A stretch of DNA of 64,000 nt from Chiloscyllium plagiosum (Eukaryota), in contig NC_057735.1 of the NCBI RefSeq assembly GCF_004010195.1, forward strand, positions 11,080,065 through 11,144,064, written 5' to 3'. The notes below the pieces were generated by a model. The model worked only from the letters and a program-made list of their open reading frames with translations. It ran no database searches and had not been told where the DNA came from. Shown piece by piece: positions 17,464-59,727 of this stretch. The translations under genes and the position numbers were made by a program. Positions within the stretch are counted from its first letter, which is position 1. Each line of letters opens with the position of its first letter.

Positions 17464-17464
17464 A

Positions 17465-22219: not shown

Positions 22220-22531
22220 CTAAAAATCAATATCAGCATAAACGTCCCCTCCAGATTCCTGAGGGGTGCTGCGTATTGGGGCTTTTTTATTCCCCTTTGG
22301 TGGCTGGTTTGGAAAGTTGAGGTCACTGTAAATGACACTGTCTGAGTTGTCACCTGTGTGCATTGCCAGCCCACCTCTCAGTGATGATGATTTCTTTTGA
22401 AACGCCAACACTGCAGATATGATTTCATCATTAATCAAGTTGCTTCCTCTCTCTCTCTGTCTTTCTGCTGTGTTCCTTTGAATGTGGTTTATGTTTGCAT
22501 ATACCAAGTTCTCTTCCACTGATGCTAATCC
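22220..22531 (-). CDS. Terminal cytoplasmic exon with ITIMs (LVYANI, VIYSDL, DVYADI)
   Basis: ttttag|GGA TTA GCA TCA GTG GAA GAG AAC TTG GTA TAT...GAT TTT TAG; open. Confidence 0.85.
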   Translation of the reverse strand, partial: GLASVEENLVYANINHIQRNTAERQRERGSNLINDEIISAVLAFQKKSSSLRGGLAMHTGDNSDSVIYSDLNFPNQPPKGNKKAPIRSTPQESGGDVYADIDF

Positions 22532-23305
22532 CTAAAATTGAAAAAAAAAGTGCTTTTCTTTCACTTGAATGGTGATTGGTGTTATTACGATTGGTGTTAA
22601 TCAATACAGTATATTAGAAGATATTATGAATTATTATTGTGTGCAGTACTGGTCCCTTCCTATCGGAGGAAGTTGTGAAACTTAAAAGGGTTCAGAAAAG
22701 AGTGACAAGGATGTTGCCAGGGCTGGAGGATTTGTGCTATAGGGAGAGGCTGAATAGGCTGGGGCATGGATGGGTTGGACTGAAGGATCTGTTTCTGTGC
22801 TGTACATTTCTATGACTCTATTTCCAGTGGAGCATAAGTAATGCATCTCAGTCCTAAAGTAATTCTCTTCCAGCCTCCTCTATCCATTTTCATCCAATCT
22901 CATCAACATATCTTGCTATTCATTTCACTCTCATGTGCTTATCCAGCTGCCCCTCTGAGTGGGTTTACAGTATTTGCCTCAAGGACCCCTAATGGCAATA
23001 AGTTCCACTTTCTGACAATCTTTGGATAACAAGGTTTCTCCTGAATTGCCCACTTCTTCTTTCTTCGGGACGAGTTGAGTCAAGTTACATTGTGAAATTT
23101 AAGAGATAATTTGATCAGCATGTGAAGAAAGAAGGAGTTGGAAGCGGGAATTGGAAAGGTTAGATGAAGAGCTGTGGAAGATGTCTTGCGTGGGCATAAG
23201 AGCCAGATGTCGCAGATGGATCAAATAGCTGATTTCTGTGCTGTAAATCCTATGTTCTGCAAATTTCTAAACAATACACAGCAAGTTAATATTTATTATC
23301 TTTAC

Positions 23306-23358
23306 CTGGTCATCATTAAGAATCTTAGCTCTTTGATGACACATGATGCAGAAGGTAC
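23306..23358 (-). CDS. Short cytoplasmic exon TFCIMCHQRAKILNDDQ
   Basis: tttcag|GT ACC TTC...GAC CAG|gtaaag; phase 1 to 0; paralog 49476-49528. Confidence 0.7.
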
Positions 23359-23806
23359 CTGAAACAATACAATACAATTGTTTAAGCGAATTTAACAGGA
23401 TGTTTATAACCTTCAAACTGAACATGTAGTGCAGTGTACATAATCATGTACTGAGCTACATTCATCACTATTGCATCCACGATTCCCAACATGAGTCTGA
23501 GGGGTGGAACGGATCTTGGGAAAGTATAGTTTGGGGCATGTCAAGTAAGTATGGGGTTGGTGGAAATTACTCCAAAATGAGACTATGCATTTATTCGTCA
23601 AACTTTTACTGAATACAAATTTCACTGGAATTAATGAGAAATCTCTCAATTAAATGAATTGTTCCAGGTGTTGAGGAATTCCCGAGTGGAACATTCAATT
23701 TTCCAGGCAATCCCTTCAGTGTCTGCTAGGATGGAGATTCTGCAGAGTTCCCACGTACAGCTCCTGACTTTACTGGAATATCAGCTATCTAGCCATTGGA
23801 AGATCC

Positions 23807-23981
23807 TACCTGCTAATGTAGTCAACTCAGCCACATTAGGGAGATTTAAACAATCCTTAGATAAGCACATGGATGTTTTTGGGATAGTGTAGGGGGGCGA
23901 GCTGAGAATAGTTCACAGGTCAGTGTAACATCAAGGGCCGAAGGGCCTGTTCTGCGCTGCATTGTTCTATGTTCTATGTTC
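23807..23981 (+). mobile_element. CR1 LINE 3' tail inserted where gene A carries its TM-exon region
   Basis: ttagataagcacatggatg...gaagggcctgttctgcgctgcattgttctatgttctatgttc; homology to gene A breaks at agatcc (23806 vs ~50677). Confidence 0.75.
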
Positions 23982-24540
23982 CATAATACAACAACAGCAT
24001 GGCACTCCCTCAGTACTGCACGTGAAACTCAGCATTGATAATGTGCCCATGTTTCTGAAGAGGAAGTGAACTCACAATCTCTGACATAGAAGCTGAATGT
24101 ACCACCACTGATCCTTTTTAAGATGTGGTACATTTCACTCGGTAAAAATGGAATAAAAGAACACTGGATGGTCACTGAAAATTAGCAACAACAGGTTTGA
24201 TAATGAACATTAGATTCCGATGATCTTCATTTACACAAACTGAGACAACAGACATGCAGATATAACCGCAAATAAAATGTATAAACTTTCAATGCTTTTC
24301 GAATCACAGAGTATTATCTGTATAAAAATAAATGAATAACATGTGCTGGAGACCTGAATGAAAAACAGAAGTTGCTGGAAAGGTATAATCAGACAGTATC
24401 TGGGGGTTGTTTTGGGTGTGGACAAGAATTGTGAAGAATTCTGCACTGAGCTATTTCTGCCCAAATGTGGACTAAATCACACTGCGTTTCCAATATTCTC
24501 CATTTCTGACTGACACTTAAGTGGCATTTTCTCTTCATCA

Positions 24541-24943
24541 GTTGTTGAAACTTTATTGCTGGAACAGCACAGCAGGTCAGGCAGCATCCAGGGAACAGGA
24601 GATTCGACGTTTCGGGCACAGGCCCTTCTTCAGGAATGAGCAGAGAGTGTTCAGCAGGAGAAGATACAAGGTAGGGAGGAGGGACTTGGAGGAGGGGCGT
24701 TGGAAATGTGATAGGAAATGTGATAGGTTTTCCACCTATCACATTTCCAACGCCCCTCCTCCAAGTCCCTCCTCCCTACCTTTTATCTTCTCCTGCTGAA
24801 CACTCTCTGCTCATTCCTGAAGAAGGGCCTGTGCCCGAAACGTCGAATCTCCTGTTCCCTGGATGCTGCCTGACCTGCTGTGCTGTTCCAGCAATAAAGT
24901 TTCAACTTTGATCTCCAGCATCTGCAGACCTCACTTTCTCCTC
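24541..24943. mobile_element. Young PLE family-1 palindromic insertion with two intact hammerhead motifs
   Basis: ~170-bp near-perfect inverted arms (24544-24714 / 24735-24906); TSD cattttctcttcatca 24525-24540 and 24944-24959; empty site at ~51522-51537. Confidence 0.9.
24813..24848 (+). ncRNA. Minimal hammerhead ribozyme motif (family 1); mirror copy 24602-24637(-)
   Basis: attc CTGAAGA a GGGC ctgt GCCC GAAAC GTC gaat: stem I attc/gaat, stem II GGGC/GCCC, ACGT palindrome. Confidence 0.82.
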
Positions 24944-25450
24944 CATTTTCTCTTCATCACCATTGTAACTTCAAAGAATTATTTCCTCAGTGTTTATATC
25001 ACACTGACAGTTCCGGCAGCTTATTTCCGACAGCTCAGGCTGATGAACTCAGGCTAAAGCCTAACGCTGCAAGCTACCTGCCCCAGTGCAGAGGTATCAC
25101 TTCAAACCTTCCTTTTCACCAGCAGGAATGACACTTTCCTGAAATGTCACTCAAGGTCACAGCAGCAAGGTACGTTTGGCAAGCAGGGGACATCACACAT
25201 GATGTAGTTTAATGGTGAAGTAATGAAGCTGAGCAATGCCATCTGAGGGCCAACAAAATAGAAACAATTATTTTCCATTTGTGCTTTTCAAAAACAATTG
25301 AACCTTTAATATGGAACTAACACAGGAGCCCAATATAAACTCAGAACCATTTTCATTTCCAAAATAACAAAAGACATCCCCTTGTTTGGCTAAAACTGTT
25401 AAAAAACATTGTTAATCTCGCACACAGAAACAAAACAGAGGATATCATAC

Positions 25451-25571
25451 TTTTCATGGGAATTCTTTCCTGGGGACTGGTTTTGACTGGTCGAGAAACT
25501 TCCAGTTATAATTGGGGAATGTGCAGTCCCTGGTGATGTTGTTGAAGAAACAGCACAAGTATATTGTTCAC
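25451..25571 (-). CDS. Ser/Thr-rich stalk exon, inhibitory type (GEQYTCAVSSTTSPG...NSHE)
   Basis: caacag|GT GAA CAA TAT ACT TGT...GAA AA|gtatga; open; paralog 52028-52148. Confidence 0.8.
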
Positions 25572-25756
25572 CTGTTGAAACAAGGGAATAATGTTCAGAT
25601 TAGTCTCCTTCTCACTTGTAGTTACCCAAGGGAACCTCATGGACAAGTGGAACCTCATTACTTGGGGAAAAGCCCTTTTGATATCATGGAGTTTTGCATC
25701 AATTCCCCTTCCCTGGTAACAATGACACCTGTAAGTGGGCTAATTCTGCTGAAAAT

Positions 25757-27337
25757 GTTAGAGTCATAGTCAGCACGGAAATAGACCCTTTGGTTCAGCA
25801 TGTCAGTGCCAAACATGTTTCTCAAAATATACTAGTCCCATTTATCTGCGTTTGGCCCATGTCTCTCTAAACATTTCTTATTCATGCACCTATTCAAATG
25901 CCTTTTAAATACTGTAACTGTACCTTCATCTACCATGTCGTCTGGCATTTCACTCCACATTGTCATTCACTAAATCATTTGTGTATGAACATAGGAGCTA
26001 CAGTTAGTAATTATATGTTGCAGGTGACAACAAAATTGCAACTTTACTGTACAACAAAGAACGTTAGCTCTGAGTACAATGGGATCTTGATCAGATGGGC
26101 CAATGGGCGAAGGATTGGCAGATGAAGTTTAATGTGAAGTGCTGCATTTTGGAAAGGCAAATCAGAGCAGGACTGATCCACTTAATGGGAAGGTCTGGGG
26201 GAGTATTGATGAACAAAGAAACCTTGGAGTGCAGGTTCATATCTCCTTGAAAGTAGAGTTGCAGATAGATAGGACCGTAAGAAGGTGTTTACTATGCTTT
26301 CCTTTATTGGTCAGAGCTTTAAGTATAGGAGCTGGGAGGTCATGTTGCGACTGTACAGGACATTGGTTAGGCCACTTTGGGAATACTGTGTGCAATTCTC
26401 GTCTCCTTCCTAAGGATATTGTGAAACTTGGAAAGCTTCAGAAATTTCCAAGGGTGTTGCCGGGGTTCTATCGGAAGGATATTGCAAAACTTGAAAGGGT
26501 TCACAAAAGATTTCCAAGAATTTTCCCAGGGTTGGAGGATTTGAGCTATAGGGAGAGGCTGAATAGGCTGGGATATTTTCCCTGGAGCATCGGAAGCTGA
26601 GGGGTGAACTTAAAGAGATTTATAAAATCATGAGGGGCATGGATAGGATAAATAGACAAAGTCTTTTCCCTAGGGTGGAGGAGTTCAGCACTAGAGGGTA
26701 TAGGTTTAGGGTGAGAGGGGAAAGATACAAAAGGGACCTGAGGGGTGACATTTTCACACTGAGGGTGGAGCGTGTATGGAATGAGCAGCCAGAGGAAGTG
26801 GTAGAGTCTGGTACAATTATAATGTTCAAGAATGATCAGGATGGGTATATGAATAGGAAGGGTTTGGAGAGATATGGGTTGGATACTGGCAGGTGGGACT
26901 AGATTAGGTTGGGATATCTAGTCAGCAAGCATGTGTTGGACCGAAGGGTCTGTTTCTGTGCTGTACATCTCTATGTCTCTATGTCTCTACATGAGCCACT
27001 CTCTGTGTGAAAATGTTGCCCTTCTGGCCCCTTTTACACTTTTCTTCTCTCACCTTAAAAATATGCCCCCTCACTTTGAACTCTCCCAGCCTAGTGAGAA
27101 AACCCTTTGCTAGTCACCTTATCTATGCCTCTCATAACTTTATAAACCTCGATAAAGTCACCCCTCAACCTCCTACCTCCAGTGGAAAAACTCCCAGTTT
27201 ATCCTTATCAATCAAACCTCTAGTCACGGCAACATTTTCATAAAACCTCTTCAATTTCATAATAACTTGCTGAAAGCAGCGGGACTAGAAGTGTACATTG
27301 TTTCCAACAGTGGCCTCACCATCATTCTGAACAGCTC
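25757..27337. mobile_element. Minus-strand CR1 3' part with a plus-strand CR1 (~25961-26990) nested inside
   Basis: Outer element colinear with 52340-52880; inner element LHFGKANQ..LSYRERLNRLG with tail tctctatgtctctatgtctct. Confidence 0.8.
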
Positions 27338-27754
27338 AGATAGAGATATAGATGTGTATAAGTTTGAAGATTCAAGGGCAGCTAGAATGATGTTGGAATG
27401 ATTGAGTGTGGAGTTAACATCATGAATGAGAGCTCTGTTGGACTGGGAGATGGAGGAGTCAGTGGCTAAGGAAAGGTGATTGCAGCAGGATAAAGACAAT
27501 GGCTTCTATCTTCAGAATTGTCAGGTGTAATTTTATTGAAGTTGTGAAAATGCCCAGACAAGCACAATCACAGCAGGTAGGTATGTCAGAGACAGTCCTT
27601 AAACTGGATCAATGGGGATGGAGGCATCAACCATCACTATCAATCCCGAGCCGTATGTCTAGCTGTCTCCTTGGAGAGGTGAACAACTGTCATTCAGACT
27701 CAGGCTCAGCACTCACTGTCTGCTGGATATGAGCCACTGGCAAGAAGATTCAGG

Positions 27755-28270: not shown

Positions 28271-28466
28271 CTGTGTGCGTGCATGTGTGTGTGTGAAAAT
28301 TCTGGGGAAATGTAGTCCATGTCATAACTCCATTAGAATGTCCTAAGTGTGCATCCTCATCCAAGTGTCATCAGCACCACCAAGGAGCCTTGCACATTGC
28401 AGACTATCTCCTCACAGATTGACAATTCAATGTATGACCATTGTAACTGAGAATTGCTGTCTTCCA

Positions 28467-28602
28467 TTCCTGAAGAAGGGCTCATGCCTGAAACATCGAT
28501 TCTCCTGCTCCTTGGATGCTGCCTGACCTGCTGTGCTTTTCCAGCAACACATTTCCAGATCTGATCTCCAGCATCTGCAGTCTTCACTTTCTCCTGGAAG
28601 AC
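28467..28602 (+). mobile_element. PLE family-1 short insertion beginning at the hammerhead
   Basis: ttcCTGAAGAagggctcatgcctGAAACatc...; candidate TSD gtcttcca 28459-28466 / 28603-28610. Confidence 0.7.
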
Positions 28603-31298: not shown

Positions 31299-31389
31299 CT
31301 AATGTTTTCGTGTAAACATTGTGACTGAAACAGAACAAATCACCAGGAGAGTGAAGAGTACCCAGCGTATCACATCCCAGACAACGCAA
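31299..31389 (-). CDS. Gene B: activating-type TM exon SCVVWDVIRWVLFTLLVICSVSVTMFTRKH*
   Basis: Polypyrimidine acceptor ttcttctgttttacacag|T TGC GTT GTC TGG GAT GTG ATA CGC TGG..; phase 2 matches the stalk donor; TM Arg; stop followed by gtgagc; not in the ORF track. Confidence 0.85.
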
Positions 31390-32283: not shown

Positions 32284-32500
32284 CTTTTCCTGACAGACTT
32301 GGGTCCTGCCGATGTTCCTGTTGCTGTTGGTGATATTGTTGGTGAAGTTGTTGGTGATATTGTTGGTGAAGTTGTTGGTGAAGTTGTTGGTGATATTGTT
32401 GGTGATATTGTTGGTGATATTGTTGGTGAAGCTGTTGATGATATTGTTGTGGATGTTGTTGATGATTTTGTTGAGGATTTGTCACAAGTATATTCCCTTC
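32284..32500 (-). CDS. Gene B: mucin stalk exon GREYTCDKSST..(SPT[I/T])n..GPKSVRK with 12-bp tandem repeat
   Basis: ctcaatag|GA AGG GAA TAT ACT TGT...AAA AG|gtagag; 217 nt, phase 1 to 2, open. Confidence 0.85.
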
Positions 32501-33461
32501 CTATTGAGACATAAGGTAATATTCAGCTACATCGGAGTCTCAGTTACAGACAACCAAGAGAGCACTCTTCACCAATGGAACCTCAGGACTTGTTGTGAAT
32601 AATGGATTTTGTTGAATTCATTTCACAATAACTCTCCCTGCCTGGAGAGATGTGGTAGTGACCGAGTTTGCATGTAGTTTGTATTTTGTTCCCCGCCCGG
32701 ACATTGATGCTACTGTATTCTTATTAAAGCATTTGAAAGCCTGAGGTTGGGTGGAACTATATTACTAAGATCACCTTTCTCATCCTTGTCAAACATAAAA
32801 GAAAGTTCCAGCCAATAAGCTGGTCACTGCCCCCGCTGGACAATGCAGCCCCTACTCTGTCCTGTGATACCCTGTGGTTGTTGGGTGAGCTTCCACTGTG
32901 ATTTTTGCCTCCACTATGGTATTTAGACCCAATGATGTAGTCTTTATGTTATCTCCTGTCACATGAAAACAAGGCGTGGATGTTGTCATACTGACAAATC
33001 AACAGAATATTTATACCAGCGTCCAGCCTAAACATATCTCATAGTCACAGACACTTAGGGGTCTGGGCTGAAACTGATGTATTCAGTTACATGCAGTGAC
33101 ACCCAACCATTAACATGTCATGCCTGATGTGACCCTGACTAAGATGGAATCTGACACCATTGTCTCCTCAGGTCACATACTACAATGCAGTGATGATTTT
33201 ATCTATTAAAGGTATAACACACACAAGCTGTGAAATGTAATACAAATCTGGAGCACAGCATTTATGCATTTTCTGGAGCTTTATTACAATTTTGTCTCCT
33301 TTCAAAAATAAATTAACACCTTGTTAAAGATTGTTCAAATATCAAAGAGATTTAATGTGATGAGGTGCAGTTATTTGTAAGTTTGGCAGAAACTTAACCA
33401 ATGAGCAGTTTGAATAAACATTGAATAAGTGTGTCAGCCTCAGTGTTTGTAGAAAACTTAC

Positions 33462-33785
33462 CGATGCTGCTGATTTATGTCATGGAACTACAGCCCCTCT
33501 CTGCTACACTGAGAACTGAGACATGAACAGTTTCACTGTATTTTTCTCCCTGAGTATTTGAGGCTGTGCAGTACTATTGATTATCTTGCTGTTTGAAGGA
33601 TTGCTATTGTGGTTCCAGTTTGTTGGTGCCAGAGATCATTGAATCTTGAGATGGGGTTTCCTCAGACCGTGTGTAGTGAATGAGGAGGGATCCCTGGGCA
33701 GACTCACAGGAGACAGTCATTGAAGCCCCTGACCATGAGATATTTGGTTGTGATTAAAACTGAAGTCGAGGCACAGAGATGGCTT
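33462..33785 (-). pseudogene. Gene B: second C2-type Ig pseudo-exon
   Basis: Homologous to 36635-36958 but acceptor cccacag changed to cccaaaa and four in-frame stops; 5' part duplicated at 33859-33995. Confidence 0.8.
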
Positions 33786-34045
33786 TTTTGGGAAATAAAC
33801 ATTTGTTACAAAGCTAACTGTAATTGAAAAGCCAACTGTTCTAGCAATAAAGTTTCAACAGACTCGCAGGAGACAGTCATTGAAGCCCCAGACCATGAGA
33901 TATTTGGTTGTGATTAAAACTGAAGTCGAGGCACAGAGATGGCTTTTTTGGGAAATAAACATTTGTTACAAAGCTAACTGTAATTGAAAAGCCAAAAACC
34001 CCCAAGACTTTGCCCTTCACTATCCCATTTAGTGCCATAGCCTCA

Positions 34046-35630
34046 TATGGCACAGAAATAGTCCCTTCGATTTAATACATCCGCGCTGAACAAATTTCTC
34101 AAAATAAACCAGTCCCACTTATCGAGTCATAGACTTATAGAGATGTACAGCGTGGAAACAGACCCTTCGGTCCAACCCGTCCATGCCGACCAGATATCCC
34201 AACCCAATCTAGTCCCACCTGCCAGCACCCACTTGCCTGTGTTTGGTGCATATCCCTCCAAATCTTTCTTATTTATGTACTGATCCAAATTTCTTTTTAA
34301 TGTTGCAACTGCCCCTTCATCTCCCATGCCCTCTGGCATTTCATTCTACATATAAAACACCCTCTGTGTGAAAATGTTGCCCCTCAGGTTCCTTTCATAT
34401 TTTCTCCTCTCACCATGAAAACGTGACCCCTCACTTTGAACTCTCCCAGCCAAGTGAAAGAAATCTTTGCTAAACACCTTATCTCGTGATTTTATATAAA
34501 CCTCTATAAAGTCACCTCTCAACCTCCTCCGCTTCAGTGGAAAAAGTCCCAGCCTATCATTATCACTCAAACCCTCCAGTCACAGCAACATCTTAGTCGA
34601 TCTTTTCTGAAACCTCTTCAATTTAATAATAACCTTCCTGAAGCAGGGCGACCAGAACTGTACACATTAAACCAAAAGTGACCTCACCATCATTCTGTAC
34701 AAGCTCATCGTGATGTTCCAACTCCGACTGTCTATGGTCTGAGCAATGATGGTAAGCATTCTAAATACCTTGTTAACCACCCTCTCTACCTGTGATGCAA
34801 ATTTCAAAGATCCCCTGGGTCTCTGTGTTCAACAGCACTACCCAGGGCCCTACTTTTAATTGTATAAGTCCTGTCCTGTTTTGTTTTACCAAAAGGCTAT
34901 ACCTCACATTGAACAAATTAAACTCCATCTGCCAATCCTCAACACACTGACCCAATTGATCAAGATCCCTTTGTAATCACAGATAATCTTTGTCACTGTC
35001 AACAATACCACCAACTGTGGTGTCATCCATAAACTTATGAACCAAGCCTTCTAAATTGTCATTCAAATCATTTATATAAATTACACAATCCCTGCAGAAC
35101 ACCACTGGTCACAGGCCTCCAATCCAAGAAAATGACCCTCCATCAGGTTTGGACAGCATGATTTCCCACACACTATCCCTAATCAGTTCTTGCCTCTCCG
35201 AATGCATGTAAATCCTATCTCTCAGAATACCCTCCAACAACCTACCCAGAACAGATATCGGACTCACATCTCTTTCATTCCCAGGCTTCTCCTGACAAAA
35301 TTTCTTACATAAAGGCACAACATTAGCCACCCTCCAGTTCTTCGGCACCGCACCCGTGGCTGTGGATAATACAAATATCCCCACTCAGGGCACCCCAAAT
35401 TCCTTCCGCAACCTCCTATAGCGTCGTGGGAGACACCTGGTCAGATCCTGGTGATTTATTCACCTTGATGTTATTTTCGACCTCCAGCACTTCCTCTTCT
35501 ACAATGAGACTGCTTTCATGACATCACTATTTATGTCCCTGAGTTCCCTAGCCTCTATGTCTTTCTCCCTGGTAAAACCTCCTGCAAAATAATTGTTTAG
35601 TATCACTCCCATCTCTTCTGGATCCACACA
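34046..35630 (-). mobile_element. CR1 LINE in the post-C2 intron, orthologous in position to 52340-53990
   Basis: VPKNWRVANVVPLCKK..; colinear similarity with the gene A intron LINE. Confidence 0.8.
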
Positions 35631-36634
35631 AAGATGATTCCTCTTACTTTTTTTCCTGAATCTGAGAGTTGGTGTGTTACATTGGGGTTTATTAAAGGGT
35701 TTGGGCTGGTAACTACAACCCAGATATCCCACTTATTTAAAACCACGGGTTTCACATGGAGCTGTCCCTTGCTGATATTGGCAGTGGTCACTTCCATCCT
35801 CTTGAGATGGCTTTCTGACCTTGCAGGAATAATGTGAAACTTCATCCACAAACATCTTAACCACCAGTGATCATCCATCAACATAACCGTAAGGAGCCAT
35901 GAGGCAGACAGATGAGGTTCCCCATCTCCAAGCAGTACTCCGAAAACATGGCTTGAGTGTGTTTTAAGTTCATCATTTCTGCAGCAAATAAACTGTTAAT
36001 TCTCTATCTTTTAGTGTTCCATGGCCAGCTTTCTAATTACCTCAACCTCATCGACACTGTCTCACCTGCCACAGCACAGCATTACTTCTCTCTGCTGGAC
36101 TGTGGGATCCAGCTGAATTTTAACCCCGAAGGGGAACTGGAACCCCCAACATGCTGCCATCAGAAGTGAGAGTGCAGCCACATGAGCTGCTGCTGATAGT
36201 TCCAAATACAGTTCCCGGGTGTCACTTCGACTTGATGCTGACTTGCTTCTTCTCTGACGCTCAAACAGATCATATCAGGAAATGGCTGCATGCAGTATTT
36301 ACAGATATTTCATTGTACAACTGATCTCCACTCTATCCCCAGTCTCGGCCCAAAATCTGGACACAACAGTCACGGACTGAATTTAAAATTCCATCTGTTA
36401 GAAAATGTAAATTCTCCATCAATCACACGCCATTTTAATATGCAGGGATTGTTGGAGTTGTTACAATGTTTCTCCATGCTGTGGGTCAGAGTTTTTGTAC
36501 CTGCTCATTTTCCAAGTTCAATCCAAACCCATTGGCTTTGTTCAGAACTGACAATGAAACAAATGGAGTGCATTTTATCAATTACAGTTTTCCAGAGTGA
36601 GGTGATAAGTAAACATTGTTTGCATCACACTTAC

Positions 36635-36958
36635 TGATGCTGTTGGTCTGTATCCTATAACTGCAGTTCTTCTCTCTTACATTGTTGACTGAGACATGAA
36701 CAATTTCACTGGATTTTGTTCCCTGAGTATTTGAGGCTGTGCAGTAATATTGATGATGTTGCCATGTGAAGGATTGACAATATAGATCCAGTTTATTGGT
36801 GTCAGAGATCTTTGAATCTTTAGATGGGGTCTTCTCAGACCATGTGTAATGAATGGGGAGGGATCCCTGGGAAGACTCACAGGAGACTGTCACTGAACCC
36901 CCTGAACATGAGACATTTGGTTGGGATAAATATCGAAGCCCAGGAACAGAGACGGCTT
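36635..36958 (-). CDS. Gene B: C2-type Ig exon (open, phase 1-1)
   Basis: cccacag|AA GCC GTC TCT...VTVSCESSQGSLPIHYTW..YYCTASNTQG..NSI A|gtaagt; 324 nt. Confidence 0.88.
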
Positions 36959-37096: not shown

Positions 37097-37404
37097 CTTC
37101 AGAGATGTGCAGGTTTACATTAGACATGCGGTCACAGTAAATACCAGGAATCTCAATCCCACAGCTGTACCATCCGGCATCTTCCTATAGAAGATTCTTT
37201 ATTGTGACAAGAAATATTCCCTGTGTTTTGTTATCAGTGATTGATATTCTCCCATTTGGCCAATTTGTCAGTGCTATAACATTACATGAACAAGTCCATC
37301 CGTGACACCAATATTTCATGTTTGGCTGCTACCACCTTCTAGGTAGTGACAAGATATTGTGATAAATTCCTGTAATGTGTTTGTCTGTCCAAAAGCACCT
37401 GAAA
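37097..37404 (-). pseudogene. Gene B: V-type Ig pseudo-exon
   Basis: KYWCHGWTCSC..GRISITDN..DAGWYSCG recognisable, but deletions/frameshifts near the 5' end and in-frame TAG (CTT CTA TAG GAA GAT); splice sites retained. Confidence 0.85.
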
Positions 37405-40177: not shown

Positions 40178-40217
40178 CAGGAATGGAACAGATGAGGAGA
40201 ATCAAAGTCCACATCAT
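40178..40217 (-). CDS. Gene B leader exon MMWTLILLICSIP (intact, phase 1)
   Basis: ATG ATG TGG ACT TTG ATT CTC CTC ATC TGT TCC ATT CCT G|gtgaat. Confidence 0.85.
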
Positions 40218-47182: not shown

Positions 47183-47494
47183 CTAAAAAGCAATATCAGC
47201 ATAAAAGTCCCTTCCAGATTCCTGAGGGGTGTTGTGTATTGGGGCTTTTTTATTCCCCTTTGGTGGTTGGTTTGGAAAGCTGAGCTCACTGTAGGTGACA
47301 CTGTCTGAGTTGTCACCTGCGTGCATTGCCAGCCCACCTCTCAGTGATGAAGATTTCTTTTGAAATGCCAACACTGCAGATATGATTTCATCATTAATCA
47401 AGTTGCTTCCTCTCTCTCTCTGTCTTTCTGCTGTGTTCCCTTGAATGTGGTTTATGTTTGCATATACCAAGTTCTCTTCCATTGATGCTAACCC
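47183..47494 (-). CDS. Gene A terminal exon with ITIMs (LVYANI, VTYSEL, DFYADI)
   Basis: ORF 47183-47482 plus acceptor ttttag|GGG TTA GCA; open. Confidence 0.85.
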   Translation of the reverse strand, partial: GLASMEENLVYANINHIQGNTAERQRERGSNLINDEIISAVLAFQKKSSSLRGGLAMHAGDNSDSVTYSELSFPNQPPKGNKKAPIHNTPQESGRDFYADIAF

Positions 47495-49289: not shown

Positions 49290-49997
49290 TGTGAAGAAAG
49301 CAGGAGTTGGAAGCTGGAATTGGAAAGGTCAGATGAAGAGGCTTGGGAGAGTCTTGTGTGGGGCATAAGAGCCAGCATGCAATAGATGGACAAAATAACT
49401 AATTTCTGTGCTGTGAATCCTATGTTCCGCAAATTTCTAAACAATATTCAGCAAGTTAATATTTATTATCCTTACCTGGTCATCATTAACACTCTTAACT
49501 CTCTGATTACACATGATGTAGAATGTACCTGAAACATTACATTGCAATTGTTCAATCAACTTTAACAGGAATACTAAATGTTTAAAATCTTCAAACTGAA
49601 CATGTATTGAAGTGTACATAATCATATACTGAACTACATCACCATCACATCCATTATTCCCATCATGAGTCTGAGGTGTGGAAGGAGTCTTAGGAAGATA
49701 TAGTTTGGAACTTATGAAGGAAATATGGGGTTAGATGAATCAGAAATTAGACCACACATTTATTCATCAAACTTTTACAGAATAATGATTTTATCAGAAA
49801 TCTCTCATTCTTGTAGCACAGAGGTAGTGTTCCCACTCCCTAAACCAGCAACCCAGGTTCATGTCCTACCTGCTCCAGAGATGTTTAATAATCTCGTTGA
49901 TTATGAAAGTATCCATGAAGTCATGGGGAAGGGCACAAAGTTAATATGATGCAGGAACATAATAGTAGAGGAAGGAGAATAAGCATTATTTCTTCAG

Positions 49998-50754: not shown

Positions 50755-50842
50755 ACTTGTTGATTTGTCTCAGGTACAAAAGTAGAGTACACCAAAAACA
50801 ACCAGAATGGCCCCCAGTACACCGACCACAACGTAAACCAGA
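50755..50842 (-). CDS. Gene A neutral TM exon NLVYVVVGVLGAILVVFGV.. (frameshifted near 3' end)
   Basis: atcccag|T CTG GTT TAC GTT GTG GTC GGT..; 88 nt where 89 are needed to reach cyt1 in phase. Confidence 0.8.
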
Positions 50843-52339
50843 CTGGGATATTGAGAATAGAAAAGGGACAGTTTTAGTTCATAATCGATCCTTGGTTATT
50901 TGATGCAAGAACTACATTAAGAAAGACTTTCATGATCTCAGGACATCCAAAAGCAATGCAGGAAGTGAAATACTTGTATCAAATGTTGTATTGGCAAACA
51001 TGGTATTCAATTTGCACAGAGTATGCTTCCACAAATAATAATTAGGAATTAAGGGTTTGCCCGAAACATTGATTTTCCTACACTTCGGATGTTGCCTGAC
51101 CTGCTGTGCTTTTCCAGCACCACTCTAATCTTGACTCTGATCTCCAGCATCTGCAGTATCTAACTCCGCCTTGTCAATAACTGAATAACAACCGAAGAGC
51201 TGACCTATGATCACTTTCGCCTACTTCATTTACACAAACTTATGCAGCAAAAATGCAGATATGACCGCAAATAGAATTTATAAACTTTCAATGCATTTTG
51301 AATCAGGGTATTATCTGTTTAAAAACAAATGAATAACATGTGCTGGAGACCTGAATGAAAAACAGAAGTTGCTGGAAAGGTATAATCAGACAGTATCTGG
51401 GGGTTGCTTCGGATGTGGACTAGAATTGTGAAGAATTCTGCACTGAACTATTTCTGCCCAAATGTGGACTAAATCACACTGCGTTTCCAATATTCTCCAT
51501 TTCTGACTGACACTTAAGTGGCACTTTCTCTTCATCACCATTGTAACTTCAAAGAATTATTTCCTCAGTGTTTATATCACACTTACAGTTCCTGCAGCTT
51601 ATTTCCGACAGCTCAGGCTGATGAACTCAGGCTAAAGCCTAATGCTGCAAGCTATCTGTCCCTGTGCAGAGGTATCACTTCAAACCTTCCTTTTCACCAG
51701 CAGGAATGACACTATCCTGAAACGTCACTCAAGATCACAGCAGCAAGGTACGTTTGGCAAGCAGGGGACATCACACATGATGTAGTTTAATGGTGAAGTA
51801 ATGAAGCTGAGCAATGCCATCTGAGGGCCAACAAAATAGAAACAATTATTTTCCATTTGTGCTTTTCAAAAACAATTGAACCTTTAATATGGAACTAACA
51901 CAGGAGCCCAATATAAACCCAGCACCATTTTCATTTCCAAAATAACAAAACCTTTCACTTATGTGGCTAAAACTGTTAAAAAAAATTGTTCATCTCGCAC
52001 ATGGAATCAAAACAAATAATATCATACTTTTCATGGGAATTCTTTCCTGGGGACTGGTTTTGACTGGTCGAGAAATTTCCACTTGTAATTGTGGAATGTG
52101 TAGTTCCTGGTGATGTTGTTGACGAAACAGCACAAGTATATTGTTCACCTGTTAAAACAAGGGAATGATGTTCAGATTCATCTCCCTTTCTCTTGTTGTT
52201 ACCCAAGAGAACTTTATGAACAAATGGAACCTCATTACTTGGGGAAAAGCCTATTTGCTAGCATGGAGTTTTGCATTATTGTCCCTTCCCTGGTAACAAT
52301 GACACATATAAGTGGGCTAATTCTACTGAAAATGTTAGA

Positions 52340-53990
52340 GTGATAGTCAGTGCGGAAATAGATCCTTTGGTTCAAATTATCAAACAAGTTTCCCAAAATA
52401 AACTAGTTCCACTTGTCTGCCTTTGGCCCATATCCCTCTAAACCTTTACTATTCATGTATCTATCCAACTGTCATTTAAATGCTGTAACTGTACCTCCAT
52501 CTACCAGATTCTCTGGCAGCTCATTCCACATATGAGCCACACTCGGGAGGGGGGGTGGGTGGGTTGTTGCACCTCAGGTCCATTTATCATTTTTCTCCTC
52601 TTTCATTACACTTATGCCCCCTCACTTAGAACTCTCCATTTGCTCTGCTATTCATCTAATTTATACACCTCATGATTTTCTAAACCTCGATAAAGTCACC
52701 TCCCAACCTCCTCCGCTCCAGTGAAAAAAGTCCCAGCCTATCCTTATCACTCAAACCCTGCAGTCACAGCAACATCTTAGCAGATCTTTTCTGAAATCTC
52801 TTCAGTTTAATAATATCCTTCCTAAAGCAGGGTGACTAGAACTGTACACACGAAACCAAAAGTGGCCTCATCATCATTCTGTACAAGTGCAACATGATGT
52901 TCCAACTCTGACAGTCAATGATCTGAGCAACGATGGTAAACATGTGAAATACCTTCTTACCACCCTGTCTACCTGTGATGCAAATTTCAAAGATCCTCTG
53001 AGTTTCTCTGTTCGCTAGCACAATCCAGGGCCCAACTTATAATTGTATAAGCCCTGTCCTTGTTCATTTTACCAAAAGGCTATAGCTCTCATTGATATAA
53101 ATTAAACTCCATCTGCCAATCCCCAGCCCATTGGCTCAACTGATCAAGATCCCTTTGTAATCATAGATAACCTATATCACTGTCAACAATACCACCAATT
53201 TTGGTGCCATCCATGAACTTACTAACAATGTCTTCTAATTTCTCATTCAAATTATTTGTATAAATTACACTGATCCCTGCAGAACACCACTGATCACAGG
53301 CCTCCAATCCAAACAAATGACCCTCCATCACCACCCTCTGTCTCCTGTCATCAAGCTAATTTTGATTCAATTGGCAAGCTCACCTTGAATCCCATCCCTA
53401 ACTCTACGTATCAGTCCAATGTGGAACCTTGTTATAATCCATATAAACAACACCTAATGCTCTGCCCTCATCATTTTTTTGGCTAAAAAAAATCAGTCAA
53501 GTTTGTAATACACAATTTCACACACCCTAATCAGTTTGTGGCTCTCCGTATGTATGTAAATTCTCAAAATCCCCTCCAATAACTTACCCACCACTGATGT
53601 CAGACTCAAAGATCTATAATTCCTTTACTTCTCCATACAGCCTTTCCTGAATGAAGGGACAACATTAGCTCCAGTCATCCGGCACCTCACACGTGATTGT
53701 GGATGACACAAATAGCTCACCTCGGGGCCCCATAATTTCTTCCCTAATTTCCCACATTGCCCTGGGAGACATTTGATTGGGTCCTAGAAATTAATCCATT
53801 GTTATATATTTTAAGACTTTCAGCACTTCTTCTTCGATAATGTGGACTGTTTTCATGACATCAAAGTTTATTTCCCTGAGTTCCCCAACCTTCCTGTCTT
53901 TTTCCACAGTAAAATGTTCAAAATATTTGTTTACTTTCTGTCCTATCTACTGTGGTTCCACACAAAGATGCTCTTGGCTACTTTATTTCC
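52340..53990 (-). mobile_element. Degenerate CR1 LINE in gene A C2-stalk intron
   Basis: aaactccatctgccaatccccagcccattgg.. (rc QWA..WQMEFN); SWNIMLHLYRMMMRPLL. Confidence 0.8.
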
Positions 53991-56900
53991 TGAATCTGAG
54001 AGCTGATGTGTTACATCTCGATTTGTTAAAGGCTTTGGGCTGGTAACTAACACCAGATATCCTACGTGTTTAAAACCACAGGTTTCACATGGAGCTGTCA
54101 CTTACTGATACAGGCAGGGGTTACTTATATCCTGTAAGCTTGCAGGAATAATGGGAAACTTATCCACAGGCACATACCCACCATCTCCTGAACCGTATGT
54201 AGCCATGAGGCAGAAAGATGAGGTTCCCCATCTCTGAGGAGTACTCAGCCAACACGGCTTGGGTGTGTTTTAAATGAATTACTTTGGCAACAATTAACCT
54301 GTTAATTCATTATCTTTTAATCTTTAATGGCCAGCTTTTGTTGCCCATTCCTAATTACCCCTGACTGAGTGACTTTCTAAACCTTTTGAAGAGGGCAGTT
54401 AGGAACAAACTGGAGGCCCATGTAGAGCAGACCTGGAAAGGCTAGAGATTTCCTTCCCTAAAGGACATTAATGAATCAGATGGGTTTTGGTACATCACAG
54501 GATCTGAGGAGATGGAAACAAACAGTTGGAATGCAACAATATCTCAAACTTAAATTGCAGCAGCCAATAGCATTGAAATAATTCTATCAAAAATCTGATT
54601 GTTTTTAGTAACATTGATTGAGGAATGAATGCTTGCTCGAACACCAGGAGAACCTCTATTCTGTAAATAGTTTACATATGGTGCCATTCCTAAAGGGGGA
54701 ACAGGTTCTCAGTTTCTCACCTCATCGATACTGTCTCACCTGCCACAGCACAGCATTACTTCTCTCTGCTGGGCAGTGGGATCCAGCCGAATCTTAACCC
54801 CGAAGGGGAACTGGAACCCCCAACATGCTGCCATCAGAAGTGAGAGTGCAGCCACATGAGCTGCTGCTGATAGTTCCAAATACAGTTCCCGGGTGTCACT
54901 TCGACTTGATGCTGACTTGCTTCTTCTCTGACAGCTCAAACAGATCATATCAGGAAATGGCTGCAGGCAAGAGTATTGGTTTAAATCAGAACTGACAATG
55001 AAACAAGTGGAGTGCATTTTATAACTTACAGTTTTGCAGAATGAGATGTTAAACATGTGCATCACACTTACCGATGCAATTGGCATTTATTTTATAACTG
55101 CAGTTCTTCTTTGTTACATTATTGACTGAGACATGAACAATTTCACTGGGTTTTGTTCCCTGAGTATTTGAGGTTGTGCAGTAATATTGATGATGTTGCC
55201 GTGTGAAAGATTGACAATGTAGATCCAGTTTATTGGTGTCAGAGATCTTTGAATCTTGAGATGGGGTCTTCTCAGACCATGTGTAGTGAATGGGGACAGA
55301 TCCCTGGGCAGACTCACAGGAGACTGTCATTGAGCCCCCAGAACATGAGACAGTAAGTGGGGATAAATATCGAAGTCCGAACATGAGACAGTAAGTGGGG
55401 ATAAATATCGAAGTCCAGGAGCAGAGGTAGCTTCTGTGGGGAAGAAACAATTATTGAGAGATCAAAGATCAAATATCCTTCAATACTTGGCCAGTTTTCT
55501 TCCTGGATAAAACACTGATCAGATATATCAGCTGAGAGTAATTTAAAAAAGTCACTGAAACATTTACCATCAGAGATGTGCAGCTCTACATTAAACATTG
55601 GGTCAAGGCCAGGAGTCTCAATCCCACAGCTGTCTGTACCATCCTGCATCTCCCCATTGAAGGTTCGTGATTGTGACAAGAAATATTCCTTGTGTTTTGT
55701 TATCAGTGATTGATATTCTCCCATTTGGCCAATTTGTCATTGCTATAACCTTACACTGACGAGTCCATCCTTGACACCGATATTTCATGTTTGATTGGTA
55801 CTGCTGCGCTTCGGAGTGACAAGATATTGTGATTGCTCTTCCCAAAATTCCCGTTATGTGTTTCTCTGTCCATAAAGCATCTGAAACTGAGGAGACAATA
55901 TTTCAGAAATTTGACTGGAAAAAACTCCTTAATACATTTTAATCAGCTACATTGCATCTAGCTCATGGTGAAGTTAATCCCTTATCACAGCGTCAGGCTG
56001 TTCCAAATTCCCAGGGAATGATTGAAACAGTTGGGATATTTTCTTTCCCCACTGGTCGAGCTTTGGGACAATCTTGAAATTGGGTTTGTGCTGCCCGCAG
56101 TGGGCTCTAACTCCAACGTGTGTGACATCATCGAAATGTTTCCCCCCCCGGAGAGCAGCCTGAGTGACAGGCCTGGATTGGAGTTGGCTGGGGATCAGTG
56201 TGAAGGAGGGCACAGATGCTGATTGGTCCTTACTGTGACTGGAGGAGAAGGGACTGTGTGTAGACTTATGGTGGGCTCAGGGGCTACATTTCCAAGGCTC
56301 ATGGGGCAGATACAACAGGTGACCCAGGAGGATGATGGGAGACCTGATGTGGGAGAAGAAGAGAATTGAAGTTCAGCAAGGGATGGTTCACGATGGGAGA
56401 GAGACATCAATGTGGAGGATCTTGAGGGCAGTAAAGGCAGGATGGTTTGTAATCACACATTGTTGTCAGTGTGAGGAGAGAAAAATAACAGAATTATTTA
56501 CTGATTTTGCTGAGTGTTGCTTAATGAGAAAATATTTAAATTGCTGCCACATTGTGTCCCGGTGGGGAAGAGGAGCAGCCTGTTGATGACGGGGTAAATT
56601 TACTTCAATAAATAGCAGACTAACAGGCTTGTTGGGAGAACCGCCCTTTGTGTGGGGAAGAATTTTCAAGCAAAATGACAAAAAGGGTTTTCAACCTCAG
56701 TGAAGAGGTGGAGAAGAGAGAAGAAAGGGAGGAAGATACATGAATGATGAAAGGTGATGAAAGCCAGGAAACAGAGACCTTATTGGATAAAGGAAGCTTT
56801 GAAAGAAAGAGAATTGTGAAAACAGAGGGATGCACACTTCAGGTTTCTATCTGTGAAGTATTCTGCATGAAGTTGGTGGGTCAGAGCCACAACATGTTTC

Positions 56901-57072
56901 AGGAAGGTTTCATGTAACAGAATTCATTGCGTTGTAGCTTAGAGTCAATGCAACATGGGAATTTTAATCTTGAGTGTTTCAAAATCATTAGTGGAGAGAT
57001 TGCAATGATGAACAATACTTTTATTGCAGTGTTACATTGTAACATGTAAACCAATGGGATTGAAAGATAGTA

Positions 57073-57280
57073 GCTGGAACAGAGCAGCAGGTCAGGCAGC
57101 ATCCAGGTAACAGGAGAATTGACGTTTCGGGCATAAGCCCTTCTTCAGGGGATTCCTGAAGAAGGGCTTATGCCCGAAACGTCGATTCTCCTGTTCCCCG
57201 GATGCTGCCTGACCTGCTGCGCTGTTCCAGCAACACATTTTAAGCTCTGATCTCGAGCATCTGCAGACCTCACCTTCTCC
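57073..57280. mobile_element. PLE family-1 mini-palindrome with back-to-back hammerheads
   Basis: gacgtttcgggcataagcccttcttcagg gga ttcctgaagaagggcttatgcccgaaacgtc; TSD attgaaagatagta 57059-57072 / 57281-57294; empty site ~39110. Confidence 0.88.
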
Positions 57281-59727
57281 ATTGAAAGATAGTAAACAAC
57301 TTGATTCAAGTTAGACTGAAAGGAAAAAAAGCTTTTTTATGCAAAGAGAAGTGTAAAACGTCCATCTGCTTTTGTGACTGAGCCTCACAGATGTATACTT
57401 AATGAACTGGATTTCTAAACTAAAATAACAGAAATAAAAGCAAACTCAAGATGTTTTGTTTGAGGCCTTATTTCCACCCTAGTTTTAGTGGCTACTGAAC
57501 ATTGAAAATTTTGGACAAATTAAGGTAATTATGATGCTTTATTTTTGATTTAAAATCAACATTATTTATCCTTTTTATTTAATGAATAATTAATGCTACT
57601 CTGAAGTATTTGGGAACTCTGCCACCTGGGATGATAATATGTTCGGGAGCGGCAGTACATTTTGTAATGTTGTTCAGGTATGCATGGGACAGACAAAGCA
57701 AATGCTGTGTCTGTTTTCTGCAGCTTATCACTTGCCTGAGTTGTTGCAATGTGAAGGGTGGCAACCTGCATTGAATAAACATGACTTGGAATCTCACCCA
57801 GTCCTGCTCCCTACCCTGGGTATGTTGGAAGGTTGATAATGAACCTGTTTGGTTTTGTGAGAATACACATTCCTTTGCAAAAGTGCTGAATGAGAATCAA
57901 ACTCTCAGCATTTGACACGGCAATAACAATGTTACCCATTGTGTCACAAGCTCTGCCTTTATCCCTTTATACATCTTCAGCAATTTAAACATTTCCACTG
58001 CATAAACCACACACTGGACTTCAAGAAACATTGGTTTCTAAATATACAACTCAGATGATCACTCACCAGGAATGGAACAAAAGTCTACATTGATTTATTC
58101 ACAAAGTTCATGATGTCAGTCTCTCAGCTCTGTTCCTCACTTTGAAATAAGTGTGGACTGCAATGTCTACAAGACGTTAAATGAGTAAGAGGATATCGGA
58201 AACCAGCTTCTGAGACCACAGTGAGCCAGAGAGTGGAATTTAACCCTAAAGACATTTTTCTTCGATCAGTTATACTCAACAGAAGAACTAACTTCATATT
58301 CATTGAAACAATAGAAAATTCTGAAATCAAGACAGTTAATGCATTAGGTGCAGAGGTAATGTTGACCCAAGCTTAGTATTTATAGTGAAATCCCAGGTGA
58401 ATGATTACTGGCTTATTCTCTCATGTTCTTAAATTTCAACAATAATTTTTGGCAAATATAGATTTCTTTTCCAAAAATTAATCATGCAGCTAAAAAAGAA
58501 CTGTTTTGAATATTTTGTCTGTTTGCAGAATCTGCCTCCTGTTAGCGTTGAATAATTATTGTGTCAGGATCTGAACTTCTAGATATGCAGGAGAAGGACA
58601 CCCTCTGCTCCATTTCCACTAGATCCAAGGAAACAAGACATGGGGCCGATTTCAGGCAAAGAAAGGAACTCAACAACAGAGAAAAAATTCAGGGGGAAGT
58701 GAGCTGTGATTGAGTAACTGGGAGTGAACTTCAATTCCAAGGTGAGGATCCCTCTGGTGAACCGACTGACATGGGGCTTTGTATTCACCAGGACATGGTT
58801 GATGATGAGTGAGTCTGGTGAACCATGCTGGGTTTCACCTTTGAGAAGATCAAAGGGACTGACACGCTTCATCAACCGTGCTCATCCCCAGCCCCAATGC
58901 TGAAGGCAGTGCCCCCACCTTAACCTTTAATATGGAAGGAGAGTCACTGGAGTCATTACCCAGAGACTGAACCAACGAGGACCATCGCAATGCTCTGTCT
59001 GGGAAACAGAAACAATACGTTGGGTAAACTCCTGGAGAACACTTGGAAACATTTGGGAGTTAATATCCCAATGGGGATGAAACCCCTCTGCTGTCAGGTC
59101 ACCAGTGTCTGAGGGTCAGAAACAGAGAGCAGAGATCCCCCAGCCCCTGAATGACATGGACACTGTAGAATCAGTTGGAAAAATAGACCAGATTGAAAAA
59201 TATGATTCTGTGATGAAACAGTGATGGCAGCAGTTATTAACAAAGTGAAGAATATCTGATCTAATTGTCAGGGGTCCTGTAAAGTGACTTGTTCAGTGTC
59301 AAAGCCATATCCTGGTAGACGGGCACTCAGCAGTTTTTAAAAGACCGTTCTTCTGAGACAAACAATTGCAGGACCTGGAGCTGCCACAAATCCCCTCCCC
59401 CATTCGGATGGATGTCCCATTTGCTCTGGAATGGTGCAGTGATCCACCCACAACATGGACATGAGCCTGTCCCAGGAGGTTTCCTTCCCAGAGATTGTGA
59501 TCAATGGGCTGGGTCTGAAAATTCTCAATACAGCCTTGAATGACCCAGAGTGCACCACCCACAATATCCTGTTTATTAACACTTACTCTCATTGTACATC
59601 CATGGGTATTTATCACACATTCTCCTTGATAATATTTGCATTTTTCTTATAGTGCCAAATGACAATGAACATCAAAACATGCAACAAGTGTGGAAACGTA
59701 TTTTTTACACCTCAACTTCTCAAAATG

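What the first reader, a model, noticed from the sequence alone, without database searches (positions are those of the whole stretch)
22220..58090. Paired activating/inhibitory V-C2 receptor system in a cartilaginous fish
Seen: genes A and B share closely similar leader, V and C2 exons and introns (C2: ..PIHYTWSEKTPSKDSKISDTNKLDLYCQSF vs ..PIHYTWSEKTPSQDSKISDTNKLDLHCQSF), yet A ends in a neutral TM plus a multi-ITIM tail and B ends in an Arg-bearing TM plus RKH*. Known: similar ectodomains with opposite signalling define paired receptors (CD300, LILR, KIR); CD300/pIgR-like V domains with additional Ig modules characterise skate MDIRs. Inference: a shark paired-receptor family combining a CD300-like V with an FcR/PECAM-like C2; the copies here are mostly decaying.
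Basis: partly seen in the sequence, partly recalled or inferred. Interest (0 to 1): 0.8.

Follow-up and report, generated by a model that had tools for sequence, protein, structure and literature searches.

The report
Shark MDIR paired immune-receptor cluster
These are two broken copies inside a large bamboo-shark cluster of antibody-like surface receptors belonging to the skate "MDIR" family, in which near-identical outer parts are attached either to a tail that likely switches immune cells off or to a membrane anchor that likely switches them on, with intact copies of both kinds lying next door.

Summary
On the minus strand, gene A (leader-V-C2-stalk-neutral TM-ITIM tail) and gene B (leader-V-C2-stalk-Arg TM-RKH*) are present. 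A is dead in four exons; B has a dead V exon. The family is not new: the C2 exon is 63-64% identical to skate MDIR3 (ITIM tail) and MDIR5 (the same Arg TM), so this is the shark MDIR cluster, annotated only as 'CMRF35-like' or 'uncharacterized'. The 300-kb cluster holds 13 Arg-TM exons, 5 ITIM tails and four complete open genes (two of each type). A and B are not each other's partners. Ectodomains do not sort by signalling type, either in this genome (AU p=0.0025) or across 22 species (22 label changes in 80 rows), which points to repeated swapping. Not found in my literature searches: V-C2 relatives in six bony vertebrates, five with the Arg TM; a position beside RBBP5 on the IL10-bearing chromosome rather than with CD300-region markers; and CD3-zeta as the only zeta/gamma adaptor found. 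Expression, signalling and ligand are untested.

The parts
58067..58090 (-). Gene A leader exon, broken (stop at codon 2, 13-nt deletion)
55568..55888 (-). Gene A V exon (CD300/pIgR-like), 4-nt insertion frameshift
55072..55433 (-). Gene A C2 exon, about 38-nt tandem duplication frameshift
54719..54969 (-). 250-bp intronic island in A, 96-100% identical among 7 paralogues of both types
52409..53330 (.). Old LINE remnant (CR1-type, label recalled) at which inhibitory and activating genes stop being homologous; copy in A
52028..52148 (-). Gene A Ser/Thr-rich stalk exon, open
50755..50842 (-). Gene A neutral TM exon, 1-nt deletion frameshift
49476..49528 (-). Gene A first cytoplasmic exon, open
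47183..47494 (-). Gene A ITIM tail exon (LVYANI, VTYSEL, FYADI), open
40178..40217 (-). Gene B leader exon, open
37097..37404 (-). Gene B V exon, broken (deletions, stops)
36635..36958 (-). Gene B C2 exon, open; 63-64% identical to skate MDIR3/MDIR5
36045..36294 (-). 250-bp intronic island in B
34229..35145 (.). Shared LINE remnant, copy in B
33461..33995 (-). Dead second C2 exon of B (lost acceptor, stops, partial duplication); same dead exon in 4 other activating copies
32284..32500 (-). Gene B mucin-like stalk exon, open
31299..31389 (-). Gene B Arg-bearing TM exon ending RKH*
25451..25571 (-). Remnant A2 stalk exon (inhibitory type)
23306..23358 (-). Remnant A2 first cytoplasmic exon; no TM exon upstream
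22220..22531 (-). Remnant A2 ITIM tail exon, open, 95% identical to A's
18515..18551 (-).
10403..10723 (-). Gene C first V exon
6398..6718 (-). Gene C first C2 exon
2829..3137 (-). Gene C second V exon; second C2, stalk, TM and ITIM tail lie 2.3-13.3 kb beyond the window's left edge

Best explanation
The window holds two broken copies, one headless remnant and the start of one intact gene of the shark MDIR cluster, a family of V-C2 receptors that likely works as a paired system, with ITIM-tailed members predicted to dampen leukocytes and Arg-TM members predicted to activate them through an ITAM adaptor. Shown: the single-V genes share one 5' unit (promoter, leader, V, C2, intron as far as an old LINE remnant), followed by one of two 3' modules. 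Ectodomains group by lineage and by neighbour, not by module. Inferred: the ITIMs recruit SHP-type phosphatases. The Arg near the outer end of the TM pairs with the Asp of a zeta/FcR-gamma-type dimer, likely CD3-zeta, the only such gene found here. The V domain binds the ligand. Unequal crossover and gene conversion keep moving ectodomains between the two modules, so activating copies track the specificity of inhibitory ones, and many copies die. This is the usual pathogen-decoy model of paired receptors (recalled).
For: Named MDIR5 (ABC86800.1) has V-C2-V-C2 and the TM WKVGRWLLF with a short tail. MDIR3 (ABC86797.1) has V-V-C2-V-C2 and three ITIM-like motifs. Both match B's C2 at 63-64%. Spliced models D and E (activating) and F and C (inhibitory) are open with canonical junctions. 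E equals XP_043572422.1 and F equals XP_043572421.1 letter for letter. Of 13 Arg-type TM exons, 10 keep Arg in an open TM. Homology between the two types ends at the shared LINE. DNA tree of 12 V-C2 units: starred clades mix the types (A with H; D and E with F), and inhibitory monophyly is rejected, p-AU 0.0025. Protein tree of 80 membrane-proximal C2 domains (35 Arg, 45 ITIM): 22 label changes, at least 15 forced by starred branches, shuffled mean 26.3. The V model superposes on CD300lf (Z 18.9, 1.3 A). One zeta/gamma TM exon was found, with the CD3-zeta chain as best match. A published cd247 probe matches across its exon junction (compared by eye).
Against: No RNA reads were laid, so no transcript was seen directly. 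Apart from the named MDIR records, the supporting proteins are automated gene models, and several fuse neighbouring genes, so type labels rest on the last C2 before each TM. The genes are not among the marker genes in a bamboo-shark single-cell table (marker list only). Pooled dN/dS is below 1 (V 0.62, 95% 0.41-0.99; C2 0.50, 0.29-0.89), so there is no domain-wide positive selection. The cross-species tree has only 107 columns and an unsettled bootstrap. The assembly has 17 gaps in the 414 kb annotated, so some copies may be collapsed or misjoined. Short-exon searches can miss an FcR-gamma gene.
Confidence: 0.8

Rival explanations
1. The family is real but only the inhibitory forms signal. The Arg-TM forms are tail-less decoys or adhesion molecules (or yield secreted V-C2 forms) that compete for ligand without an adaptor.
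For: No FcR-gamma or DAP10 was found over cut-off, and Akula et al. report no FcR-gamma in sharks (PMC4016189, section 13). An NCBI isoform of gene E skips the stalk and stops just after C2 (P0108).
Against: The Arg-Trp TM motif is kept in 36 of 102 chondrichthyan proteins and in five of six bony-vertebrate relatives. A charged TM residue with a short tail is the standard mark of adaptor-coupled receptors (PMC3031540, Introduction). CD3-zeta is present.
Confidence: 0.12
2. The mixing of types in the trees comes from assembly or annotation error (collapsed repeats, misjoined scaffolds, fused gene models) and not from real exchange between genes.
For: Many gaps in the cluster, fused NCBI models, and a 250-bp island at 98.5% mean identity in otherwise 82% introns.
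Against: The pattern repeats in independent assemblies of sharks, rays and skates, and in the named MDIR3/MDIR5 pair. Genes D, E and F lie in gap-free stretches.
Confidence: 0.05
3. These are chiefly immunoglobulin (Fc) receptors, the shark stand-ins for pIgR/FcmuR/FCRL, with paired signalling as a secondary feature.
For: V is pIgR/CD300-like and C2's best solved relative is FCRL5. The cluster lies on the contig with IL10, CNTN2 and RBBP5, the human PIGR/FCMR neighbourhood (recalled). No shark pIgR or FCRL has been reported (PMC4016189).
Against: V fits CD300lf better than pIgR domain 1 (Z 18.9 vs 16.0). The per-domain FCRL5 score is weak (27.9 bits). Fast turnover and loop variation suit a shifting ligand rather than a constant Fc (inference). 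IL10 is 6 Mb away and its match is weak (E 7e-5).
Confidence: 0.15

Closest known systems
Modular domain immune-type receptors (MDIR) of clearnose skate: MDIR3 ABC86797.1, MDIR5 ABC86800.1; elephant-shark 'MDIR2' AFK11143.1
   Same: Same V and C2 modules (C2 63-64%; V-C2 53% over 216 aa to MDIR5), same leader type, same Arg-Trp TM in MDIR5, same ITIM tail layout in MDIR3.
   Different: Most shark copies here have one V-C2 unit (MDIR3/5 have two or more). The activating tail is cut to RKH* (about 17 more residues in most other species). A dead second C2 sits in the activating copies. Different species.
NCBI models XP_043572421.1 (LOC122563080, 'uncharacterized') and XP_043572422.1 ('CMRF35-like molecule 8') of Chiloscyllium plagiosum
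   Same: Identical to my spliced models of cluster genes F and E.
   Different: Not labelled MDIR or paired. Genes A, A2 and B are other, broken copies.
Mammalian CD300 family
   Same: V fold with the extra cysteine pair (Z 18.9, rmsd 1.3 A to CD300lf); mixed activating and inhibitory cluster.
   Different: CD300s have a single V and no C2 (PMC3031540). Markers of the human CD300 region (NHERF-type, APOH-type; positions recalled) map to other contigs.
LILR/PIR, FcalphaRI, GPVI, NKp46 (Arg-TM receptors; recalled)
   Same: Arg near the outer end of the TM, short tail, ITIM counterparts.
   Different: C2-only ectodomains, use FcR-gamma, other locus.
FCRL5 / FCRL family
   Same: Best solved relative of the C2 domain (E 1e-25 summed over repeats).
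   Different: No V domain. The MDIR C2 has extra cysteines and an appended hairpin in the model (residues 217-230).

Membership tests
MDIR | Ig modules homologous to named MDIR proteins | tested here: met
   C2 63-64% to MDIR5/MDIR3; V-C2 53% over the whole 216-aa query; V domains nest with MDIR3/5 D1 among elasmobranch V-C2 rows
MDIR | Modular V (CD300/pIgR/TREM-like) plus C2/I-type domains in varying number | tested here: met
   V-C2 in A, B, D, E, F, G; V-C2-V-C2 in C
MDIR | Multigene family with activating and inhibitory forms (as stated in PMC3031540) | tested here: met
   13 Arg-type TM exons and 5 ITIM tails in about 300 kb
MDIR | Same locus as the skate genes; the original paper's own criteria | not testable with these tools
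   No skate genome is held; Cannon et al. 2006 is not held
Paired receptors (functional class) | Near-identical ectodomains joined to opposite signalling modules | tested here: met
   V-C2 units of the two types 83-92% identical at DNA level and intermixed in trees
Paired receptors (functional class) | Opposite signalling and shared ligand on co-expressing cells | not testable with these tools
   Motifs only; no transcript, adaptor or ligand data obtained
CD300 | V domain with a second disulfide | tested here: met
   Four V cysteines in the open V exons of D, E, F, g3 and G; superposition on CD300lf
CD300 | Single V ectodomain | tested here: not met
   C2 exon present in the A/B-type genes; V-only genes occur further along the locus
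CD300 | Synteny with the human 17q24-25 region | tested here: not met
   EBP50_C hits on C24 and C21, Sushi_2 on C24; the cluster is on C26. Two markers only; human positions recalled
pIgR / FcmuR / FcalphamuR | V-only ectodomain | tested here: not met
   Alternating V-C2
pIgR / FcmuR / FcalphamuR | Binding of polymeric Ig | not testable with these tools
   Needs a binding assay
FCRL | C2-only ectodomain of FCRL-type domains | tested here: not met
   N-terminal V present; C2 only weakly FCRL5-like per domain

The most novel reading that the evidence does not exclude
The V-C2 receptor with an Arg-Trp membrane anchor is a jawed-vertebrate-wide lineage older than the shark/bony-fish split: still present in gar, paddlefish, arapaima, coelacanth, newt and caecilian, and expanded into swapping paired clusters in elasmobranchs. 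In sharks it signals through CD3-zeta because FcR-gamma is absent. Sitting on the PIGR/IL10-type chromosome, it is a living form of the ancestor of the pIgR/CD300/FcmuR V receptors and a candidate for the missing shark antibody receptor.
Probability: 0.2. Interest if true: 0.75.

Novelty: new member of a known kind. Interest (0 to 1): 0.42.

Why it matters
MDIRs were named in 2006 from skate. In the searchable literature I found only one relevant paper that mentions them, and no description of a shark cluster. This locus gives the genomic anatomy: one 5' unit, two 3' modules, a shared LINE at the junction, and ectodomains that follow lineage while both signalling modules are shared by sharks and rays. 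That makes it among the oldest paired-receptor systems that can be mapped. It also yields directly testable points: which adaptor an Arg-TM receptor uses in an animal where FcR-gamma has not been found, and whether these receptors bind shark antibodies. The two genes in the finding are themselves dead or crippled copies, and intact neighbours are already in public gene models.

Tried and rejected
(1) The idea that B is an A-type gene with an inserted Arg-TM cassette, giving alternative 3' ends: rejected, because the other activating genes have B's layout and A2 lacks its own TM exon. (2) A CD300/PECAM1-region (17q) origin suggested by the domain mix: two markers map elsewhere. (3) Run search: no RNA holder listed on record. 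No reads were laid, so expression stays open. (4) Complex prediction of gene E's TM with human FcR-gamma: no verdict, score 0.02. (5) First fold (16 sequences) left C2 unfolded; the second (37 sequences) gave pLDDT 84. Fold-search rows were dominated by the V domain and C2 was not searched alone. (6) Rfam on the 250-bp island: 0 hits. (7) A TMEM81-like neighbour (label recalled) got no PDB or Pfam support and is not counted. (8) ITAM and DAP10 family searches: one marginal hit each. (9) My first Arg-TM pattern matched nothing and was redone. The first V-tree/HMM separation of bony relatives was circular and was redone with a chondrichthyan-only profile. (10) Cannon 2006 and Cannon 2010 are not held. 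(11) Earlier scan findings: three look-ups empty; the fourth listed 8 of 9 notes, none on this locus.
Full report
Observation. The window is G000:C26:11,080,065-11,144,064. All genes of the finding are on the minus strand. Gene A runs leader 58090, V 55888, C2 55433, stalk 52148, neutral TM 50842, a 53-nt cytoplasmic exon 49528 and an ITIM tail 47494-47183. Gene B runs leader 40217, V 37404, C2 36958, a dead second C2 near 33790, a mucin stalk 32500 and the Arg TM exon 31389-31299. A is broken in leader, V, C2 and TM. B is broken only in V and the second C2; its leader, C2, stalk and TM would still be in frame if V were skipped (222 aa; no transcript seen). The tail at 22531-22220 belongs to a remnant, A2, that has stalk, cytoplasmic exon and tail but no TM exon or ectodomain. 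With five further exons left of the window it forms an open 606-aa V-C2-V-C2 inhibitory receptor (it spans two assembly gaps).

Domains. The V exon's nearest single-domain solved relatives are CD300 proteins, then pIgR and TREM2. An AlphaFold model of an intact paralogue (pLDDT 84) puts V on CD300lf at Z 18.9 and 1.3 A. The C2 exon's best solved relative is FCRL5, weakly per domain. In the model C2 carries an appended two-strand hairpin, and its cysteines are conserved across the alignment. PECAM did not appear among the 60 rows shown.

The cluster. A genome search with B's C2 gave 26 matches: 20 in C26:10.99-11.27 Mb, 4 at 7.46-7.55 Mb and 2 on small contigs. Annotating 414 kb gave 13 Arg-type TM exons, 5 ITIM tails and 13 V exons inside the V-C2 cluster. 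Of the TM exons, 10 keep Arg in an open helix; of the V exons, 7 are open. Spliced models with canonical junctions and no internal stop exist for activating D (285 aa) and E (299 aa) and inhibitory F (414 aa) and C. G is open, but its leader was not found beside a 9.8-kb gap. E and F are identical to XP_043572422.1 and XP_043572421.1 of Chiloscyllium plagiosum, which gives the species. From 11.31 to 11.57 Mb the locus continues with V-only genes, again with both Arg-Trp TMs and ITIM tails.

Identity of the family. The C2 search returned 102 proteins, all named chondrichthyan records. Among them are skate MDIR5 (63%) and MDIR3 (64%). MDIR5 ends in WKVGRWLLF and a short tail, the same TM as B; MDIR3 ends in a neutral TM and three ITIM-like motifs, like A. 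MDIR3's accession is one of those listed for skate MDIRs in PMC3031540 (passages and Introduction read), which calls them multigenic activating/inhibitory receptors resembling CD300, TREM, FCAR and pIgR. The founding paper could not be read. Ten literature searches were run; none listed a description of a shark MDIR cluster. The library lacks most subscription journals, so this is weak evidence of absence.

How the two types relate. The single-V genes are homologous from promoter through V and C2 into intron 3, as far as an old LINE remnant (34229-35145 in B, 52409-53330 in A). Beyond it, inhibitory genes share one module and activating genes another, the latter starting with a C2 exon that is dead in 5 of 5 copies examined and shares a stop. 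A's 5' unit is 92% identical over 3.3 kb to the activating-type copy H just right of the window, against about 80% to B. In a DNA tree of 12 V-intron-C2 units (3 inhibitory, 6 activating, 3 unlabelled), starred clades join A with H and F with D and E, and holding the inhibitory ones together is rejected (p-AU 0.0025). Across species I took the last C2 before each TM from the 102 proteins: 80 rows, 35 Arg and 45 ITIM. Proteins without a recognisable TM, or without a full C2 next to it, were dropped. Rows group by lineage, with 22 label changes, at least 15 forced by starred branches and a shuffled mean of 26.3; about 30 of 500 shuffles were as low. Both types occur in 14 of the 22 species, counting the skate pair. 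The alignment is short, the bootstrap had not settled, and some models fuse neighbours. Both 3' modules are thus shared by sharks and rays while ectodomains are lineage-specific, which implies repeated exchange (inference). Pooled dN/dS is 0.62 for V (6 copies) and 0.50 for C2 (8 copies); the most variable V columns fall in a few short stretches, after the first cysteine and near the end of the domain. This shows constraint, not domain-wide positive selection.

Mechanism. Inferred from motifs and established knowledge: ITIM members recruit phosphatases; Arg-TM members with a three-residue tail need an ITAM adaptor (PMC3031540, Introduction). An Arg at the outer end of the helix is the arrangement of FcR-gamma-coupled receptors (recalled). 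Two searches found a single zeta/gamma-family TM exon in this assembly. It matches CD3-zeta best, and a published cd247 probe spans its junction. Akula et al. 2014 (PMC4016189, passages and section 13 read) found no FcR-gamma, pIgR or FCRL in sharks. CD3-zeta is therefore the likely partner, although a short gene can be missed. The ligand is not known; I favour a self or microbial surface ligand under decoy pressure over constant Ig Fc.

Expression. No reads were laid. Indirect only: NCBI lists several isoforms for E, one skipping the stalk, which usually implies RNA support (general knowledge). In PMC11372145 I saw passages, part 1 of the supplement archive and term searches in it. The archive is cut in storage, but the shark marker sheet lies within the held part. 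It has no entry under the LOC numbers or names tried. Later supplementary sheets were not held and may bear on expression.

Wider context. Left neighbours are RBBP5 and a contactin closest to CNTN2. Right neighbours are an AHCY-like gene closest to AHCYL1 and a GST. An IL10-family exon lies 6 Mb away on the same contig (weak match), while NHERF-type and APOH-type markers are on other contigs. By recalled human positions this is the 1q32/1p13-type chromosome that carries PIGR and FCMR, not the CD300 region. A search of 1.84 billion representatives (381 hits, best 150 listed) turned up six bony-vertebrate proteins: paddlefish, coelacanth, caecilian, newt, gar and arapaima. They have V, the hairpin-extended C2 and, in five of six species, the Arg-Trp TM. 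Against a chondrichthyan-only profile they score 75-84 bits over nearly the full length; the next unrelated C2 scores 51. Their V domains form a starred clade whose joining to the chondrichthyan V-C2 clade is only weakly supported (78/89). Orthology is likely but not shown. Only ITIM forms were seen in the elephant shark among the proteins retrieved.

Verdict. A real feature, correctly read, but of a known family: broken shark members of the MDIR paired-receptor cluster, with intact members beside them already in gene models under generic names. The added value lies in the cluster's anatomy, the ectodomain swapping, the bony-vertebrate relatives and the adaptor question. Interest 0.42.

Noticed in passing
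window 36045-36294 and 54719-54969; five more copies in the cluster: A 250-bp intronic island is 96-100% identical (mean 98.5%) among 7 paralogues of both types, against 82% for the intron just upstream. Of 9 genome matches, 8 are in the cluster. It has AG and GT at its ends and no Rfam hit. Recent conversion tract, constrained element or assembly effect; unexplained.
   Followed up: partly
window 2829-18551 and G000:C26:11066784-11077774: Intact V-C2-V-C2 inhibitory gene C, with similar models in epaulette, brown-banded bamboo, zebra and whale sharks.
   Followed up: yes
G000:C26:11.31-11.57 Mb (L032, L040-L068, L081): A run of V-only CD300-like genes with both Arg-Trp TMs and ITIM tails directly after the V-C2 cluster.
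   Followed up: partly
G000:C26:7.45-7.57 Mb (L069-L078): Second, small MDIR cluster 3.5 Mb away, with an Arg-TM gene and a neutral-TM gene sharing near-identical V exons, plus a broken C-type copy.
   Followed up: partly
window 31299-31302: The stop of RKH* sits right before a GT donor-like site. Most other species continue about 17 residues further, so the tail was likely cut by a point change at the exon end in bamboo and epaulette sharks.
   Followed up: partly
L095 (G000:C12:49.77 Mb): The only zeta/FcR-gamma-family TM exon found in the assembly is cd247; no FCER1G was detected.
   Followed up: partly
P0216, P0233, P0234, P0235/P0268, P0245, P0254: Unnamed V-C2 receptors of paddlefish, coelacanth, caecilian, newt, gar and arapaima that look like bony-vertebrate MDIRs.
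   Followed up: partly
window 17072-17463: Tandem repeat of about 34 bp in gene C's first intron.
   Followed up: no
window 19557-19652: Assembly gap inside a simple-repeat tract between remnant A2 and gene C.
   Followed up: no
L029-L030 (G000:C26:11.293-11.296 Mb): Fragments that look like retroviral-type pol/integrase between the V-C2 and V-only clusters (seen by eye).
   Followed up: no
window 3-962 (minus strand): 320-codon open frame that looks like a LINE endonuclease region (label recalled).
   Followed up: no
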